Virus genome (UHGV): UHGV-0060642
Source of the DNA: a virus
DNA length: 41,777 nt
Direction: 5' to 3' (one strand)
Of this stretch, positions 5,963 to 35,187 are shown one piece after another. The notes beneath the pieces were generated by a model. It did not search any database. It had not been told where the DNA came from and saw only the letters and a list, made by a program, of their open reading frames with translations. Position numbers and translations under genes: made by a program. Positions within the stretch are counted from its first letter, which is position 1. Each line of letters starts with the position of its first letter.

Positions 5963-6095
5963 TTTTTGGGACTCCTGGCTGATTAAGTATGTCGATAAGG
6001 CGTTTCCATCCGTCACGTAATTTACGGGTGATTCGTTCAAGTAAAGATTCGGAAGGGCAGCCAGCAACAGGCCACCCTGCAATGGCATATTGCAT
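5931..6095 (-). CDS. cIII: CIII (protects CII from FtsH)
   Basis: MQYAIAGWPVAGCPSESLLERITRKLRDGWKRLIDILNQPGVPKNGSNNYGYPD matches recalled lambda CIII (54 aa); ATG at 6095 preceded by AAGGAG. Confidence 0.9.
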   Translation of the reverse strand: MQYAIAGWPVAGCPSESLLERITRKLRDGWKRLIDILNQPGVPKNGSNNYGYPD

Positions 6096-6154
6096 GGTGT
6101 GCTCCTTATTTATACATAACGAAAACGCCTCGAGTGAAGCGTTATTGGTATGCA

Positions 6155-6768: not shown

Positions 6769-6969
6769 TCAGGAAGCCTTGTTGTTCTGTTTACCAATTT
6801 CTCTGGCAATCATTGCCGTCGTTCGTATTGCCCATTTATCGACATATTTCCCATCCTCCATTACAGGAAGCATTTCTTCAGGCTTAACCATGCATTCCGA
6901 TTGCAGCTTGCATCCATTGCATCGCTTGAATTGTCCACACCATTGATTTTTATTAATAGTCGTAGTCAT
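6769..6969 (-). CDS. ral: Restriction alleviation protein Ral
   Basis: 66 aa MTTTINKNQWCGQFKRCNGCKLQSECMVKPEEM...DKWAIRTTAMIAREIGKQNNKAS closely matches recalled lambda Ral. Confidence 0.85.
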   Translation of the reverse strand: MTTTINKNQWCGQFKRCNGCKLQSECMVKPEEMLPVMEDGKYVDKWAIRTTAMIAREIGKQNNKAS

Positions 6970-7039
6970 AAGGATAGTCCTGGTATTGTTCCATCACATC
7001 CTGCGGATGCTCTTCGAACTCTTCAAATTCCTCTTCCAT
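6953..7039 (-). CDS. Small acidic peptide ORF (28 aa), lambda orf28-like position
   Basis: MEEEFEEFEEHPQDVMEQYQDYPYDYDY read from the sequence; ATG preceded by GAGGTGA; lies between N and ral; below the track cutoff. Confidence 0.4.
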   Translation of the reverse strand: MEEEFEEFEEHPQDVMEQYQDYPYDYDY

Positions 7040-7047
7040 ATCTCACC

Positions 7048-7347
7048 TCAAATAAGTGGTTTGCTGCCTAATTTCATTTTCTGGCGACCAACACAAGTCA
7101 CACCCATTTCACTGCGTGGCTTGCGGTAGTAAATACGATTCTGTTTACTCTCGACTTCTTCTGCCTTCTTGCAGCGAAGGCTTCCGAGTGATGCTGCTTT
7201 ATCTGCTCTGACGCAACCAGAGAGCTTTAGCGCAATTTTTCGCGCCAGTCGCTGCTCTTGCATTGCCTGTTCACGTTGAGCCTGTCTGCGTGCTCTGCGG
7301 CGATTTCTGGCGTTATCATCAGCCAGATATGTAATGACTACTGTCAT
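7048..7347 (-). CDS. N: N-family transcription antiterminator
   Basis: C-terminus ...GVTCVGRQKMKLGSKPLI resembles the lambda N C-terminus; arginine-rich motif NARNRRRARRQAQREQ near the N-terminus; start at internal ATG (7347) preceded by GGAGG. Confidence 0.8.
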   Translation of the reverse strand: MTVVITYLADDNARNRRRARRQAQREQAMQEQRLARKIALKLSGCVRADKAASLGSLRCKKAEEVESKQNRIYYRKPRSEMGVTCVGRQKMKLGSKPLI

Positions 7348-7658
7348 GTTGACCTCCGATGAAACAACTTTGGAATTGATAGTGATTGCAAAGTGGTTTC
7401 TGGCCCCTCGAACTGAGGGGCAGAAAGAGCATCTCGCCACCTAATAGGTCGATGCTCGGATCGAGAGATTTAATTAACCTCGGTTTTGAAGTTATGCATT
7501 CACATAAATCCTCCTGTTGCATGTGCAGCATTGGCTGTGTTTGGCGGCTGCATTTCGCCCATGGAATTGACTTTGGCGGTGACGCGCCGGATGCTTATCT
7601 TCCGGTTGCCGTCGTGCAGCTGCACTTCACGTCACCCCAAAGCCAACTACTCTTTGGT

Positions 7659-7699
7659 TCCCGCATTTCGGCGGGACAATCCCATCAATGTTAAAGAGC
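7659..7699 (-). promoter_or_regulatory. nutL: nutL (boxA plus boxB hairpin)
   Basis: Minus strand reads GCTCTTTAACA (boxA-like) then hairpin TCCCGC-cgaaat-GCGGGA; the same boxA and boxB occur in nutR. Confidence 0.7.
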
Positions 7700-7744
7700 C
7701 TGCCAATCTGTTCCGTTTGGCTACCAGCGTCCTGCTGATGGCTT

Positions 7745-7830
7745 AAATTTAAGATCTCTTTAATTAATGGTCAAGGGTATTTTTGAAGAAAACTTAAATT
7801 TTCTTTCGTAACTTAAGTTTGGCTTTGATT
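7745..7830 (-). promoter_or_regulatory. OL/PL region with three P22-type 18-bp operators
   Basis: ATTTAAGATCTCTTTAAT, ACTTAAATTTTCTTTCGT and ACTTAAGTTTGGCTTTGA fit the same half-site pattern as the OR operators (approximate coordinates). Confidence 0.6.
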
Positions 7831-7840
7831 TTTAAAGGAA

Positions 7841-7864
7841 ATAAAAAAAGGGGCGAATGCCCCC
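7841..7864 (-). terminator. Terminator directly after the c2 repressor gene
   Basis: Minus-strand hairpin GGGGC-attc-GCCCC followed by a long T run, next to the c2 stop codon. Confidence 0.6.
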
Positions 7865-8515
7865 TTATGGAAGGTTTGCTAGTTTTGCATCGACAACTAC
7901 GCCGATGATTTTGCAGTTTCCGTTGATCTCGATCATCGGATATTGTGGGTTAAGTGGTTTTAGAAACTTCCTGCCTGCATCAATAACTAACTTCTTGAAA
8001 GTTGCCTCGTTTTCTCCTTCGAGCTTTGCAACTACCAGTTTCCCGTTACGCGGCTCTACTTCAGGATCGACGAGTATTATCATTCCTTCAGGGATACTGA
8101 GACCGGCTGGAGCCGTCATTGAGTCTCCCTTCACGTCCAACCAAAACGAATCTTCTGAACAGTCTACGGTTGTATCGTACCAGTTATCTATTGCACGCTT
8201 ATGATATGGTTCTACAGCTTCCATCCAGCATCCTGCGCTCACCCAGCTAATCAGAGGGAATGACCCTCTTGGATTATGCCTACTGTGATAGGCAATGTTT
8301 GAAAGACTTTCCTCTCCTTTCATCAGATAGTCAGGGGAACACTTCAACGCATTAGCCAGGGCGAGAAGATTCTCTCCATTTGGCTCTGTCTCAGAGCGTT
8401 CCCACTGAGATATGGCAACATTAGACACGCCGACCATCTTTCCAAGTGCGGCCTGCCTGATCTTGAGTTCTTTTCTCCGAGCGCGAATGCGCTCTCCCAT
8501 CAATTGAGTTTTCAT
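7865..8515 (-). CDS. c2: CI-type repressor, P22 C2-like (HTH plus LexA-like autocleavage domain)
   Basis: 216 aa; MKTQLMGERIRARRKELKIRQAALGKMVGVSNVAISQWERSETEPNGENLLAL... matches recalled P22 C2; S24 peptidase-like C-terminal domain (GDSM...K). Confidence 0.95.
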   Translation of the reverse strand: MKTQLMGERIRARRKELKIRQAALGKMVGVSNVAISQWERSETEPNGENLLALANALKCSPDYLMKGEESLSNIAYHSRHNPRGSFPLISWVSAGCWMEAVEPYHKRAIDNWYDTTVDCSEDSFWLDVKGDSMTAPAGLSIPEGMIILVDPEVEPRNGKLVVAKLEGENEATFKKLVIDAGRKFLKPLNPQYPMIEINGNCKIIGVVVDAKLANLP

Positions 8516-8595: not shown

Positions 8596-8781
8596 ATGTA
8601 CAAGAAAGATGTTATCGACCACTTCGGAACCCAGCGTGCTGTAGCTAAAGCGTTAGGCATTAGCGACGCAGCAGTCTCTCAGTGGAAGGAAGTCATCCCA
8701 GAGAAAGACGCCTATCGACTGGAAGTCGTTACAGCTGGCGCCCTGAAGTATCAAGAAAGCGCTTACCGCAAAGCGGCATAA
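8596..8781 (+). CDS. cro: Cro repressor (P22 type)
   Basis: 61 aa MYKKDVIDHFGTQRAVAKALGISDAAVSQWKEVIPEKDAYRLEVVTAGALKYQE matches recalled P22 Cro. Confidence 0.93.
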   Translation: MYKKDVIDHFGTQRAVAKALGISDAAVSQWKEVIPEKDAYRLEVVTAGALKYQESAYRKAA

Positions 8782-8787
8782 GCAAAT

Positions 8788-8831
8788 TGCTCTTTAACAG
8801 TCATGGTCCTCATTCCCGCCGAAATGCGGGA
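8788..8831 (+). promoter_or_regulatory. nutR: nutR (boxA plus boxB hairpin)
   Basis: TGCTCTTTAACA followed 14 nt later by hairpin TCCCGC-cgaaat-GCGGGA, between cro and c1. Confidence 0.7.
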
Positions 8832-8889
8832 ATACAACGCGCATAAGTTGATGCGCATAACTTCTTATTTGTTAAGGAAATACTTACAT

Positions 8890-9183
8890 ATGGTTCGTGC
8901 AAACAAACGCAACGAGGCTCTACGAATCGAGAGTGCGTTGCTTAACAAAATCGCAATGCTTGGAACTGAGAAGACAGCGGAAGCTGTGGGCGTTGATAAG
9001 TCGCAGATCAGCAGGTGGAAGAGGGACTGGATTCCAAAGTTCTCAATGCTGCTTGCTGTTCTTGAATGGGGTGTCGTTGACGACGACATGGCTCGATTGG
9101 CACGACAAGTTGCTTCGATTCTCACCAATAAAAAACGCCCGGCGGCAACCGAGCGTTCTGATCAAATACAAATGGAATTTTAA
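8890..9183 (+). CDS. c1: CII-type lysogeny activator (P22 C1-like)
   Basis: MVRANKRNEALRIESALLNKIAMLGTEKTAEAVGVDKSQISRWKRDWIPKF... matches recalled P22 C1; start set at the internal ATG of the longer track ORF. Confidence 0.9.
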   Translation: MVRANKRNEALRIESALLNKIAMLGTEKTAEAVGVDKSQISRWKRDWIPKFSMLLAVLEWGVVDDDMARLARQVASILTNKKRPAATERSDQIQMEF

Positions 9184-34859: not shown

Positions 34860-35125
34860 AGGTGTCATTGCTTGATCGTTCTTTACAATTTTTGTCTGGC
34901 GCAATCATTGTAGTTTGCTTGCTCGTGATTTTTACATCGTTAATCAATATGTATCAATCAGGGGAACGATTGACAAAGACGATAGAGGAAAAAAAATCAG
35001 TCTCAAATTACGAAGTATCACATGCACATAACGATTTAGTAGAAAGCCTTGACCGTATTAACAAGAGGCTTGACGAGACAAATATGCTACTTAAGCAAAT
35101 TCAAAATGAAGTGGAAAAACGTTGA
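34856..35125 (+). CDS. Uncharacterized single-pass membrane/coiled-coil protein coupled to arc
   Basis: 89 aa; ATGA overlap with the arc stop; hydrophobic helix GAIIVVCLLVIFTSLINMY then coiled coil; not present between arc and ant in P22 as recalled. Confidence 0.65.
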   Translation: MKVSLLDRSLQFLSGAIIVVCLLVIFTSLINMYQSGERLTKTIEEKKSVSNYEVSHAHNDLVESLDRINKRLDETNMLLKQIQNEVEKR

Positions 35126-35155
35126 AGCCCCAACTGCTGTAACAGTCAGGGCTTC
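35112..35155 (-). terminator. Possible terminator of a sar-like antisense RNA (opposite the ant 5' region)
   Basis: Extended hairpin GAAGCCCcaACTG...CAGTcaGGGCTTC; on the minus strand it is followed by AACGTTTTT (approximate coordinates). Confidence 0.4.
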
Positions 35156-35187
35156 GGTATCAACAAAACTTACGAGGTATTATTGAT

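What the first reader, a model, noticed from the sequence alone, without database searches (positions are those of the whole stretch)
7347..7700. N-family antiterminator with nut sites unlike lambda or P22 as recalled, and a long structured N leader
nutL and nutR share the same boxA (GCTCTTTAACA) and the same boxB hairpin (TCCCGC-cgaaat-GCGGGA). From memory this differs from lambda boxB (GCCCT-gaaaa-AGGGC) and from P22 boxB. The N protein has a lambda-like C-terminus but its own arginine-rich motif (NARNRRRARRQAQREQ), suggesting a distinct N/boxB specificity pair. The roughly 310-nt leader between nutL and the N start contains a further GC hairpin around 7403-7421 (minus strand GCCCCTC-agttc-GAGGGGC) with no T-run, perhaps an RNase III or translational control element.
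Basis: partly seen in the sequence, partly recalled or inferred. Interest (0 to 1): 0.35.

Follow-up and report, generated by a model that had tools for sequence, protein, structure and literature searches.

The report
HK620-type N antiterminator with leader cassette
This is the ordinary early-gene switch of a lambda-like phage, whose protein/RNA recognition pair was already annotated in phage HK620 in 2001; its messenger leader also carries an optional, apparently undescribed 204-base insert with a tiny reading frame and two conserved hairpins.

Summary
nutL (7659-7699, minus) and nutR (8789-8831, plus) share boxA GCTCTTTAACA and boxB TCCCGC-cgaaat-GCGGGA. N (7347-7048) has its own arginine-rich motif, and the GC hairpin lies at 7403-7421.

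It is not a new specificity pair. nutL, nutR and N residues 1-60 match phage HK620, where the nut sites were annotated in 2001, and also HK140, CUS-3 and many prophages. N residues 34-99 are phage 21-type. In 109 sampled lambdoid leaders, each arginine-rich motif class goes with one boxB; the HK620 type is about 10%.

The leader follows the lambda plan. After boxB comes a 16-bp bulged long stem (7570-7643) that covaries across 11 leader types. It corresponds to the lambda N-leader stem, which I recall as the RNase III site.

The cassette holds a strong Shine-Dalgarno, AUG-UGA, a 9-codon mini-ORF and tandem hairpins with compensatory changes. It occurs in leaders of at least five N types, in 158 of 5426 E. 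coli genomes and in 11 conjugative plasmids. It matches no Rfam family. Its function is unknown; post-transcriptional tuning of N is my inference.

The parts
7746..7774 (-). pL promoter: -35 TTGACC (7769-7774), 17-nt spacer, -10 TAAATT (7746-7751). The transcript start is inferred at the A of ATCAGCAGGACGC (7739).
   Evidence: Promoter scan, 9 of 12 matches. The motif CATCAGCAGGACGC at 7727-7740 is shared with lambda, P22, phage 21 and HK620. The P22 record marks the corresponding base as the 5' nucleotide of the pL RNA.
7689..7699 (-). nutL boxA, GCTCTTTAACA
   Evidence: Identical in HK620, HK140, CUS-3 and phage 21. Annotated as nutL or boxA in HK620 and HK140.
7659..7676 (-). nutL boxB hairpin UCCCGC-CGAAAU-GCGGGA (6-bp stem, 6-nt loop)
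   Evidence: It goes with the HK620-type arginine-rich motif in all loci examined. Variant L263 keeps the loop with stem CUCCGC/GCGGGG.
7637..7657 (-). Small hairpin CCAAAG-agtagttgg-CUUUGG. It overlaps the 5' arm of the long stem, so it is a possible alternative pairing. Lambda has the equivalent CAAAGC-agaag-GCUUUG.
7570..7643 (-). Long N-leader stem-loop. The 5' arm is GCUUUGGGGUGACGUG (7628-7643) and the 3' arm is CGCGUCACCGCCAAAGU (7570-7586): 16 bp with one bulged G. It corresponds in position and sequence to the long stem of the lambda N leader, which I recall as the RNase III site.
   Evidence: 11 leader types keep a 13-19 bp closing stem with a conserved lower stem and a covarying upper stem. 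The structured lambda leader and its RNase III link are cited in PMC5725501; the exact cleavage positions are from memory.
7363..7566 (-). Optional 204-nt leader cassette. It is absent from HK620, lambda, P22 and phage 21.
   Evidence: Alignments. Distribution. No Rfam match.
7524..7552 (-). Cassette hairpin H1, UGCAGC ... GCUGCA
   Evidence: RNAalifold and pair counts. The stem is invariant among phage copies, so it gives no covariation evidence.
7500..7515 (-). Cassette Shine-Dalgarno AGGAGG (7510-7515) followed by the AUG-UGA start-stop (7500-7505)
   Evidence: All 64 true cassette copies found with a motif that does not include the Shine-Dalgarno keep it: 63 have the exact GGAGGATTTATGTRAAT motif and the one variant, L179, has GGAGGGTTTATGTGA. 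The plasmid and L370 copies have ATG-TAA.
7470..7499 (-). 9-codon mini-ORF, MHNFKTEVN, ending in the multi-frame stop cluster UAAUUAA
   Evidence: Alleles in 8 lineages. It is destroyed in the CUS-3 type.
7427..7457 (-). Cassette hairpin A, GAGCAUC ... GAUGCUC. It contains the boxA-like TGCTCTTT, which is not conserved.
   Evidence: Compensatory variants: GAACAUC/GAUGUUC, GAGCCUC/GAGGCUC, GGCCAC/GUGGCC.
7397..7426 (-). An outer extension, UUUCU/AGAAA, has one bulged C.
   Evidence: Variants: CCCCGUC/GGCGGGG, CCCCUCC/GGAGGGG, CCCCGG/CCGGGG. The loop sequence varies freely. No U-tract follows it.
7048..7357 (-). N gene: Shine-Dalgarno GGAGG at 7353-7357, ATG at 7347, stop at 7048-7050, 99 aa. 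The arginine-rich motif is roughly residues 10-27 (DDNARNRRRARRQAQREQ).
   Evidence: Residues 1-60 match HK620 N at 59 of 60. Residues 34-99 match phage 21 N at 63 of 66.
8789..8831 (+). nutR: boxA 8789-8799, 14-nt spacer, boxB 8814-8831. It lies between cro (8596-8781) and cII (8869-9183).
   Evidence: HK620 annotates nutR at the same position.

Best explanation
This is the pL-proximal early control module of a P22-like (lambdoid) phage. It most likely works as in lambda.

Transcription from pL (7746-7774) makes a 392-nt leader and then N. N is a mosaic lambda-family antiterminator. Its N-terminal arginine-rich motif is the HK620 type. Its remaining two thirds are the phage 21/lambda type, which includes the part that contacts RNA polymerase.

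The arginine-rich motif binds the boxB hairpin UCCCGC-CGAAAU-GCGGGA. That hairpin sits next to a boxA in each early transcript (nutL 7659-7699, nutR 8789-8831). Together with host NusA, NusB/NusE and NusG, the complex makes the polymerase read through the early terminators. These steps are inferred from homology and anatomy.

Downstream of nutL the leader keeps the lambda design: a small hairpin, then a 16-bp bulged long stem (7570-7643). I infer that this stem is the RNase III processing and N-autoregulation element, as in lambda.

Between that stem and the N ribosome-binding site this phage carries an optional 204-nt cassette (7363-7566).

My inferred, low-confidence mechanism is that the cassette tunes N expression after transcription. 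Ribosome loading at the start-stop plus the folded hairpins would stabilise or insulate the N mRNA downstream of the processing stem, and would separate the N ribosome-binding site from nutL-bound N. The cassette is neither an intrinsic terminator nor a second nut site.
For: - Both nut sites are exact and non-random.
- N matches phrog_271 at E = 1e-36. Its C-terminus aligns to lambda N residues 75-110 in PDB 6GOV at E = 9e-4.
- The chimera boundaries were measured: residues 1-60 match HK620 N at 59 of 60; residues 34-99 match phage 21 N at 63 of 66; residues 1-33 match phage 21 at only 6 of 33.
- The genomic setting is canonical: c2-like repressor, cro, cII, ral and cIII.
- HK620 annotates the same nutL and nutR.
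- Arginine-rich motif class and boxB type co-occur: lambda 29 of 29, P22 11 of 11, phage 21 3 of 3, HK620-type 6 of 7 parsed, plus wobble variants with the same loop.
- The long stem is conserved with covariation in 11 leader types, including lambda.
- Lambda N autoregulation through nutL and the structured leader is cited in PMC5725501.
- The cassette Shine-Dalgarno plus start-stop is kept in all 64 copies found through an independent motif.
- Tandem hairpins A and B are predicted in every variant. 98.1% of cells pair, and 7 pairs change on both sides versus 3.3 in shuffles (0 of 500 shuffles reach it); slid controls give 36-50% paired.
- The cassette occurs in leaders of at least 5 N/nut types and in plasmids.
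Against: - Nothing here was tested biochemically.
- Pfam N_peptide scores below its gathering threshold (18 vs 27.9 bits), and NCBIfam has no model.
- RNase III cleavage of the long stem is inferred from correspondence with lambda, and the lambda cleavage positions are from my memory.
- The cassette is dispensable. It is absent from HK620, lambda, P22 and phage 21, and present in only 1 of 117 randomly sampled leaders and 2.9% of E. coli genomes.
- Its mini-ORF is destroyed in the CUS-3-type allele, the one carried by most of the E. coli genomes that have the cassette.
- The covariation rests on few independent lineages.
- Predicted accessibility of the N ribosome-binding site with and without the cassette was inconsistent.
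Confidence: 0.8

Rival explanations
1. The cassette, and so the GC hairpin, is functionless mosaic debris. It would be a relic left by recombination at a hot spot between the long stem and the N ribosome-binding site, for example a fossil translation start plus leftover hairpins.
For: It is optional and rare. Unrelated inserts occupy the same site in other leaders: L229 has a 39-aa ORF and L286 a 46-aa ORF. Short direct repeats flank it: TCAATTCCA here and CAAAGCCATTTCAC in L133. The mini-ORF is lost in the CUS-3 type. L155 keeps a remnant N start after the cassette.
Against: Two alleles that are about 70% identical keep both hairpins through compensatory changes, including a paired insertion in hairpin B. 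The Shine-Dalgarno plus start-stop is kept in all 64 copies. The same core is kept in conjugative plasmids at 72% identity.
Confidence: 0.3
2. The GC hairpin at 7403-7421 is itself the RNase III site of the N leader.
For: It extends to about 12 bp with one bulge and abuts hairpin A, so the two might stack into a longer helix.
Against: The stem that corresponds in position and sequence to the lambda N-leader stem is at 7570-7643 and is present in every leader type. The hairpin is absent from HK620, lambda, P22 and phage 21, which still have that stem. From general knowledge, 12 bp is short for an RNase III substrate.
Confidence: 0.1
3. The cassette is an attenuator placed between nutL and N. 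It would be Rho-dependent and controlled by translation of the mini-ORF. N-modified polymerase would read through it, giving N positive autoregulation.
For: It has the layout of a leader peptide plus stop cluster plus hairpins. A G-poor unstructured stretch (7363-7396) precedes the N ribosome-binding site. nutL lies upstream, so N could suppress termination there. This is inference only.
Against: No U-tract follows hairpin B in any variant. The C-over-G bias is weak and is replaced by an A-run in the CUS-3 type. The mini-ORF is dispensable in that type.
Confidence: 0.1
4. TGCTCTTT plus the GC hairpin is a second nut-like site for another antiterminator. I considered this hypothesis during the analysis.
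For: TGCTCTTT (7424-7431) resembles boxA and lies 1 nt before the hairpin.
Against: The motif is the 3' arm of hairpin A. It changes to TGTTCTTT, GGCTCCTT and GGCCTTT together with compensating changes in the 5' arm. The spacing to the hairpin is far shorter than in real nut sites. TGCTCTTY occurs 9 times in the window against 4.4 expected.
Confidence: 0.03
5. The leader encodes a protein: either the 41-aa ORF annotated in HK140 (HK140_048), or the 118-129-aa antisense ORFs that RefSeq annotates in UTI89-like prophages.
For: These ORFs exist in single genomes and are annotated as hypothetical proteins.
Against: No ORF of 25 aa or more is shared by the cassette types on either strand. 2-nt indels and an in-frame TAG break them in the CUS-3 type.
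Confidence: 0.05

Closest known systems
Phage HK620 N with its nutL and nutR (AF335538; also HK140, HK630, CUS-3, N7, IME10 and others)
   Same: boxA, spacer and boxB of nutL are identical, and so is boxB of nutR. N residues 1-60 are 59 of 60 identical. The pL leader is the same up to the long stem. CUS-3 has the same 99-aa chimeric N and also carries a cassette.
   Different: HK620 lacks the 204-nt cassette, and its N has a different C-terminus (ending YAAGYRKSKQLTAR), which the HK620 record likens to H-19B N. In HK620 the nut sites are annotated only as putative.
Phage lambda N, nutL/nutR, and the N leader with its RNase III-sensitive stem and N autoregulation
   Same: Same gene order and same transcript start motif. 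The order boxA, boxB, small hairpin, long bulged stem (GCUUUGG/CCAAAG base), Shine-Dalgarno, N is the same. The C-terminal region of N is homologous. The arginine-rich motif shares RRRxRR and QAQ, and the boxB loop contains GAAA.
   Different: boxB is a 6-bp stem with the 6-nt loop CGAAAU, against a 5-bp stem with the GAAGA/GAAAA pentaloop. The motif lacks the tryptophan position of lambda N. The upper stem sequence differs. Lambda has no cassette, and its Shine-Dalgarno follows the stem directly.
Phage 21 N and its leader
   Same: N residues 34-99 are 95% identical. The leader is near-identical from the transcript start through boxA and similar in the long stem.
   Different: boxB (TCTCAAC-ctaacc-GTTGAGA) and the arginine-rich motif (GTAKSRYKARRAE) are unrelated. 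Both specificity elements are swapped while the sequence between them stays homologous.
Start-stop sites and short regulatory upstream ORFs in E. coli (Ribo-RET study, bioRxiv 10.1101/520783; AUGUG initiation, PMC9841429)
   Same: A Shine-Dalgarno plus AUG followed at once by a stop codon. The sequence AUGUGA also offers an overlapping GUG start.
   Different: The described E. coli start-stops lie inside genes. Here the site lies in an untranslated phage leader, next to a 9-codon ORF and two conserved hairpins, and nothing is known about whether it is translated.

Membership tests
Lambda-family N antitermination protein | Small basic protein encoded as the first gene downstream of pL, next to the immunity region | tested here: met
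   99 aa, directly downstream of pL and the c2-like repressor. cro and cII lie on the other side, and ral and cIII downstream.
Lambda-family N antitermination protein | Sequence homology to known N proteins, including the C-terminal polymerase-binding part | tested here: met
   phrog_271 at E = 1e-36. Lambda N (6GOV chain N) residues 75-110 at E = 9e-4. 95% identity to phage 21 N over residues 34-99.
Lambda-family N antitermination protein | Passes the curated Pfam or NCBIfam model | tested here: inconclusive
   PF25694 N_peptide scores 18 bits against a cut-off of 27.9. NCBIfam has no hit. These models appear not to cover this subfamily; RefSeq calls such proteins hypothetical.
Lambda-family N antitermination protein | N-terminal arginine-rich motif paired with boxA + boxB nut sites in both early transcripts | tested here: met
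   NARNRRRARRQAQ at residues 12-24. nutL and nutR are exact copies at the canonical positions.
Lambda-family N antitermination protein | Nus-dependent antitermination activity | not testable with these tools
   Needs reporter or in vitro transcription assays.
HK620-type N/nut specificity group | Same arginine-rich motif and same boxB as HK620 | tested here: met
   59 of 60 identity over N residues 1-60. nutL and boxB are identical. The type makes up about 10% of 109 sampled leaders.
Lambda-type N-leader long stem (RNase III site in lambda) | Long bulged stem between nutL and the N ribosome-binding site, with conserved base GCUUUGG/CCAAAG and a covarying upper stem | tested here: met
   16 bp at 7570-7643. 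The same geometry appears in 11 leader types, including lambda.
Lambda-type N-leader long stem (RNase III site in lambda) | Cleavage by RNase III | not testable with these tools
   Needs rnc+ versus rnc- end mapping.
Intrinsic terminator (for the hairpin at 7403-7421) | GC-rich stem followed by a U-tract | tested here: not met
   The stem is present, but no T-run follows it in any of the variants.
nut site (for TGCTCTTT + hairpin at 7403-7431) | Conserved boxA at a proper distance from the hairpin | tested here: not met
   The motif varies together with its pairing partner in hairpin A and lies 1 nt from the hairpin.
Any Rfam family (for the leader and cassette) | Covariance-model match | tested here: not met
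   No match at gathering thresholds. Only chance-level hits with E > 6 in 7250-7850.
Regulatory upstream ORF / leader peptide (for 7470-7515) | Ribosome-binding site plus short ORF conserved across lineages | tested here: inconclusive
   The Shine-Dalgarno plus start-stop is invariant in all 64 copies. An 8-9-codon ORF is kept in 8 lineages, with variable sites at codon positions 1/2/3 of 3/2/6 out of 8 (p = 0.13), but it is destroyed in the CUS-3 type. Translation was not tested.

The most novel reading that the evidence does not exclude
The 204-nt segment (7363-7566) is a functional, mobile cis-regulatory RNA module that has not been described. It consists of a ribosome-loading start-stop, an 8-9-codon leader peptide (consensus MHNFK[TS]E) and two stacked hairpins. 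Recombination would have spread it among the N leaders of lambdoid phages of at least five antiterminator specificities. A relative sits in what looks like the leading region (the stretch downstream of mobI) of conjugative plasmids. Both locations hold genes expressed first on entry into a cell. The module would control how much of the first early regulator is made.
Probability: 0.35. Interest if true: 0.55.

Novelty: new variant of a known kind. Interest (0 to 1): 0.3.

Why it matters
The N/nut pair itself adds nothing new, because it is the HK620 type. The survey made here does show how cleanly arginine-rich motif classes and boxB hairpins co-vary in natural phages. At least nine motif classes appear in 109 leaders, and most, including this one, seem never to have been tested biochemically. 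That gives a ready set of orthogonal peptide-RNA pairs for tethering tools.

The leader comparison shows that the long stem of the lambda N leader is a conserved, covarying feature across lambdoid phages. It also shows that the site just downstream of the stem is an insertion hot spot.

If the cassette is functional, it would add a translational layer to one of the best-studied genetic switches. It would also link phage early control with plasmid leading-region expression.

Tried and rejected
- Second nut site at the GC hairpin: rejected, because the boxA-like motif covaries as the 3' arm of hairpin A.
- Intrinsic terminator: rejected, no U-tract.
- Protein-coding reading of the leader on either strand: rejected, no ORF is shared between cassette types.
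- H-19B as the source of the arginine-rich motif, as the HK620 note might suggest: rejected. The H-19B motif is RSRRRER (PMC3526286). The HK620 resemblance to H-19B therefore cannot lie in the arginine-rich motif.
- Rfam search: nothing.
- Antisense partner for the cassette elsewhere in the window: only chance 11-mers.
- Long-range pairing of the nutL spacer with 7377-7389 seen in the MFE fold: not conserved in the CUS-3 type, so not relied on.
- Effect of the cassette on predicted accessibility of the N ribosome-binding site: inconsistent between alleles.
- Literature searches for the motif, the boxB sequence, HK620 nut sites and CUS-3 boundary sequences found nothing specific. The Cocozaki 2008 and Wilson 2002 papers are not held.
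- The genome-collection scan with the Shine-Dalgarno motif returned mostly chance hits. Only Serratia, Citrobacter and Kluyvera contigs were relevant, and their gene context was uninformative.
- Codon-position test on the mini-ORF: suggestive only (p = 0.13).
Full report
**What is there.** The window carries the immunity region of a P22-like lambdoid phage. The features are:
- a c2-like repressor (7865-8515, minus strand; Peptidase_S24 + HTH);
- a P22-type cro (8596-8781, plus);
- a lambda-type cII (8869-9183);
- ral, and a cIII thermoregulator RNA, downstream of N.

The pL promoter lies at 7746-7774 on the minus strand. The motif CATCAGCAGGACGC (7727-7740) is the conserved start of the pL transcript in lambda, P22, phage 21 and HK620.

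The nut pattern GCTCTTTAACA-N-TCCCGCCGAAATGCGGGA occurs exactly twice. nutL is at 7659-7699 (minus) and nutR is at 8789-8831 (plus), between cro and cII. None of 100 shuffles contains it.

N starts at the ATG at 7347, behind GGAGG, and ends at 7048 (99 aa). The hairpin GCCCCTC-agttc-GAGGGGC is at 7403-7421 and has no T-run after it. Only nutL and the leader fall inside the stated coordinates.

**What the N/nut pair is.** A megablast of 7040-7780 finds 341 phage records. Phage HK620 (AF335538) has the same pL start, boxA, spacer, boxB and N 5' half. Its record annotates 'nutL; putative N-utilization leftward' and 'nutR' at the corresponding places. HK140 and CUS-3 match over the whole leader.

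At the protein level N is a clean chimera:
- residues 1-60 are 59 of 60 identical to HK620 N;
- residues 34-99 are 63 of 66 identical to phage 21 N;
- residues 1-33 share only 6 of 33 with phage 21.

N matches phrog_271 'anti-termination protein N-like' at E = 1e-36. Its C-terminus aligns to lambda N residues 75-110 in PDB 6GOV. The Pfam N_peptide model scores below threshold and NCBIfam has no model. That is probably why RefSeq calls these proteins 'hypothetical'.

The H-19B arginine-rich motif is RSRRRER (PMC3526286). So the similarity to H-19B noted in the HK620 record cannot lie in the arginine-rich motif.

**Is it a specificity unit?** In about 70 loci with this arginine-rich motif, nutL always has (T)CCCGC-cgaaat-GCGGG(A). 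The C-terminal part of N comes in at least four types among them.

I also took a sample of 109 pL leaders from IMG/VR, found only through the conserved transcript start. Motif class and boxB were tightly coupled:
- lambda type with GCCCT-gaaga-AGGGC, 29 of 29 parsed;
- P22 type with GCGCT-gacaa-AGCGC, 11 of 11;
- phage 21 type with TCTCAAC-ctaacc-GTTGAGA, 3 of 3;
- HK620 type with CCCGC-cgaaat-GCGGG, 6 of 7.

A further 4 HK620-type leaders were left unparsed by a parser that accepts only perfect Watson-Crick stems. I read one of them, L263: it has CTCCGC-cgaaat-GCGGGG, the same loop with a compensated outer pair.

The HK620 type makes up about 10% of the sample, and at least nine motif classes are present. 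Compared with phage 21, boxB and the arginine-rich motif are both swapped while the leader between them stays homologous.

I found no paper that tests it biochemically. Two papers that might list it are not in the held library.

From the sequence alone, the loop contains GAAA flanked by C and U, and the motif shares RRRxRR and QAQ with lambda N. A lambda-like GNRA-type recognition is a reasonable inference, not a result.

**The leader.** The leaders of lambda, P22, phage 21, HK620 and this phage share one plan: transcript start, boxA, boxB, a small hairpin (CCAAAG...CUUUGG), and then a long stem closed by GCUUUGG/CCAAAG.

In 11 leader types the closing stem is 13-19 bp with a single bulge. Its upper part covaries, for example GUGACGUG/CGCGUCAC here, GUGUGUG/CACACAC in lambda, AUGCGGUG/CACCGCAU, and AUUGGAUG/CAUCCAAU. 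The enclosed loop ranges from about 40 to about 200 nt.

In this window the stem is 7570-7643. In lambda the structured N leader is tied to RNase III and to translational autorepression by N bound at nutL (PMC5725501, citing Wilson 1997 and 2002). That RNase III cuts in this particular stem is from my memory.

**The cassette.** In HK620, lambda, P22 and phage 21 the N Shine-Dalgarno follows the stem within about 10 nt. Here 204 nt (7363-7566) are inserted. Their distribution:
- among 50,697 phage records, only HK140 (99% identical) and CUS-3 (70%) have them;
- 158 of 5426 complete E. coli genomes have them, in allelic forms about 100%, 92% and 70% identical;
- 1 of 117 randomly sampled leaders has them.

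The anatomy, from 5' to 3', is as follows:
- hairpin H1 (7524-7552);
- AGGAGG-AUUU-AUG-UGA (7500-7515);
- directly abutting, AUG CAU AAC UUC AAA ACC GAG GUU AAU UAA (7470-7499);
- the UAAUUAA stop cluster;
- hairpin A (7427-7457);
- hairpin B (7397-7426, core 7403-7421).

A scan with a 5' motif that does not include the Shine-Dalgarno found 64 true copies in IMG/VR. Sixty-three have the exact Shine-Dalgarno/start-stop sequence and the other (L179) has GGAGGG-UUU-AUG-UGA.

Hairpins A and B are predicted in every allele. On a 27-sequence alignment, 98.1% of cells pair. Seven pairs change on both sides against 3.3 in shuffles (0 of 500 shuffles reach it). Slid controls give 36-50% paired.

Stem variants of A: GAGCAUC/GAUGCUC, GAACAUC/GAUGUUC, GAGCCUC/GAGGCUC, GGCCAC/GUGGCC. 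Stem variants of B: GCCCCUC/GAGGGGC, CCCCGUC/GGCGGGG (with a paired insertion), CCCCUCC/GGAGGGG. The loops vary freely. The number of independent lineages is small, so this is moderate support rather than proof.

The cassette sits in leaders with at least five different N/nut types:
- HK620 type;
- P22 type (L133, L156, L098, L172);
- a 933W/H-19B-like type (L155);
- MNNKQRKKLQRAVEH (L197);
- SKTRRYRQRGE (L370).

A 72%-identical core (123 nt) lies in 11 conjugative plasmids. In pECTOK-001_1 it lies downstream of mobI, next to a hok locus. Covariance model R1 also gives weak full-length matches in Serratia, Citrobacter and Kluyvera contigs.

The mini-ORF is kept at 8-9 codons in eight lineages: MHNFKTEVN..IN, MHNFKSEEK, MHNLKTEVK, MHKFKSESK, MPTFNFEIN, MHNFKNEN. 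Most variation is at third codon positions (3/2/6 of 8 sites; p = 0.13). The mini-ORF is destroyed in the CUS-3 allele, which keeps only the start-stop.

No Rfam family matches. Existing annotation calls the region a 'hypothetical protein' (HK140_048), a 'boundary sequence' (CUS-3) or an antisense hypothetical protein (UTI89). No ORF of 25 aa or more is shared between alleles.

**How it most likely works.**
- Shown here: the anatomy, the identity to HK620-type elements, the coupling of motif class with boxB type, the conservation of the long stem, and the conservation of the cassette's start-stop and hairpins.
- Inferred from the lambda paradigm: N binds boxB through its arginine-rich motif, and with Nus factors at boxA converts the polymerase to a termination-resistant form. 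The long stem is processed by RNase III and mediates N autoregulation.
- Inferred with low confidence: the cassette tunes N output after transcription. Ribosome loading at the start-stop, next to stable hairpins, would protect or insulate the mRNA downstream of the processing stem and would distance the N ribosome-binding site from nutL-bound N.

Functional start-stop sites are documented in E. coli (bioRxiv 10.1101/520783). The rivals are listed with their evidence: debris at an insertion hot spot, an RNase III site, a Rho attenuator giving positive autoregulation, a second nut site, and a small protein.

**Verdict.** The finding is real and mostly ordinary. It is a known (HK620-type) N/nut module joined to a phage 21-type N body, with a lambda-like leader. 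It raises the interest modestly. Interest 0.3.

Noticed in passing
window 6050-6108 (-) and 35120-35186 (-): Rfam finds the lambda cIII thermoregulator element (88.5 bits) and a sar antisense RNA (63.6 bits). The phage therefore has a P22-type immI region in addition to the immC region studied here.
   Followed up: no
window 6953-7039 (-): A 28-codon, extremely acidic ORF (MEEEFEEFEEHPQDVMEQYQDYPYDYDY) lies between N and ral and overlaps the ral start at 6969. Its function is unknown.
   Followed up: partly
L178 (phage mEp213, JQ182733) 821-1153 and 2306-2578: mEp213 carries two N genes in its pL operon. One is lambda-type, behind a lambda nutL. The second is HK620-type, 1.1 kb downstream, behind a degenerate boxB (CCCTCCGAAATGCGGG) with no recognisable boxA.
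   Followed up: partly
L229 and L286 (IMG/VR), between the long stem and the N ribosome-binding site: Other leaders carry different inserts at the same site as the cassette: a 39-aa hydrophobic ORF (L229), and a 46-aa ORF followed by a GC hairpin (L286). The site behaves as an insertion hot spot.
   Followed up: no
L263 (IMG/VR), directly after boxB: Another strong Shine-Dalgarno with an immediate start-stop (AGGAGG-CTAT-ATG-TAG) occurs in an unrelated part of an HK620-type N leader. This hints that ribosome loading in N leaders may recur.
   Followed up: no
L012/L175 (plasmid pECTOK-001_1, NZ_AP018396.1 68038-68168); L065, L084, L090: A homologue of the cassette core (Shine-Dalgarno, ATG-TAA, MHKFKSESK mini-ORF, hairpins A and B) lies downstream of mobI on a conjugative plasmid, about 220 nt from a convergent hok/flmC locus. 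That stretch is possibly the leading region. Serratia, Citrobacter and Kluyvera contigs have two tandem weaker units followed by a terminator-like hairpin.
   Followed up: partly
L008 (UTI89) 1021-1410, L006, L011: RefSeq annotates a 129-138-aa 'hypothetical protein' antisense across the whole N leader, and it annotates N itself as 'hypothetical protein'. The antisense ORF is not conserved between cassette alleles and is probably spurious.
   Followed up: partly
window 7377-7389 with 7677-7688 (-): In the minimum-energy fold, the nutL spacer UUGAUGGGAUUG pairs over 12 bp with CAAUCACUAUCAA at the 3' end of the cassette, enclosing boxB, the long stem and the cassette. The partner sequence is absent from the CUS-3-type allele, so its significance is unclear.
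   Followed up: partly
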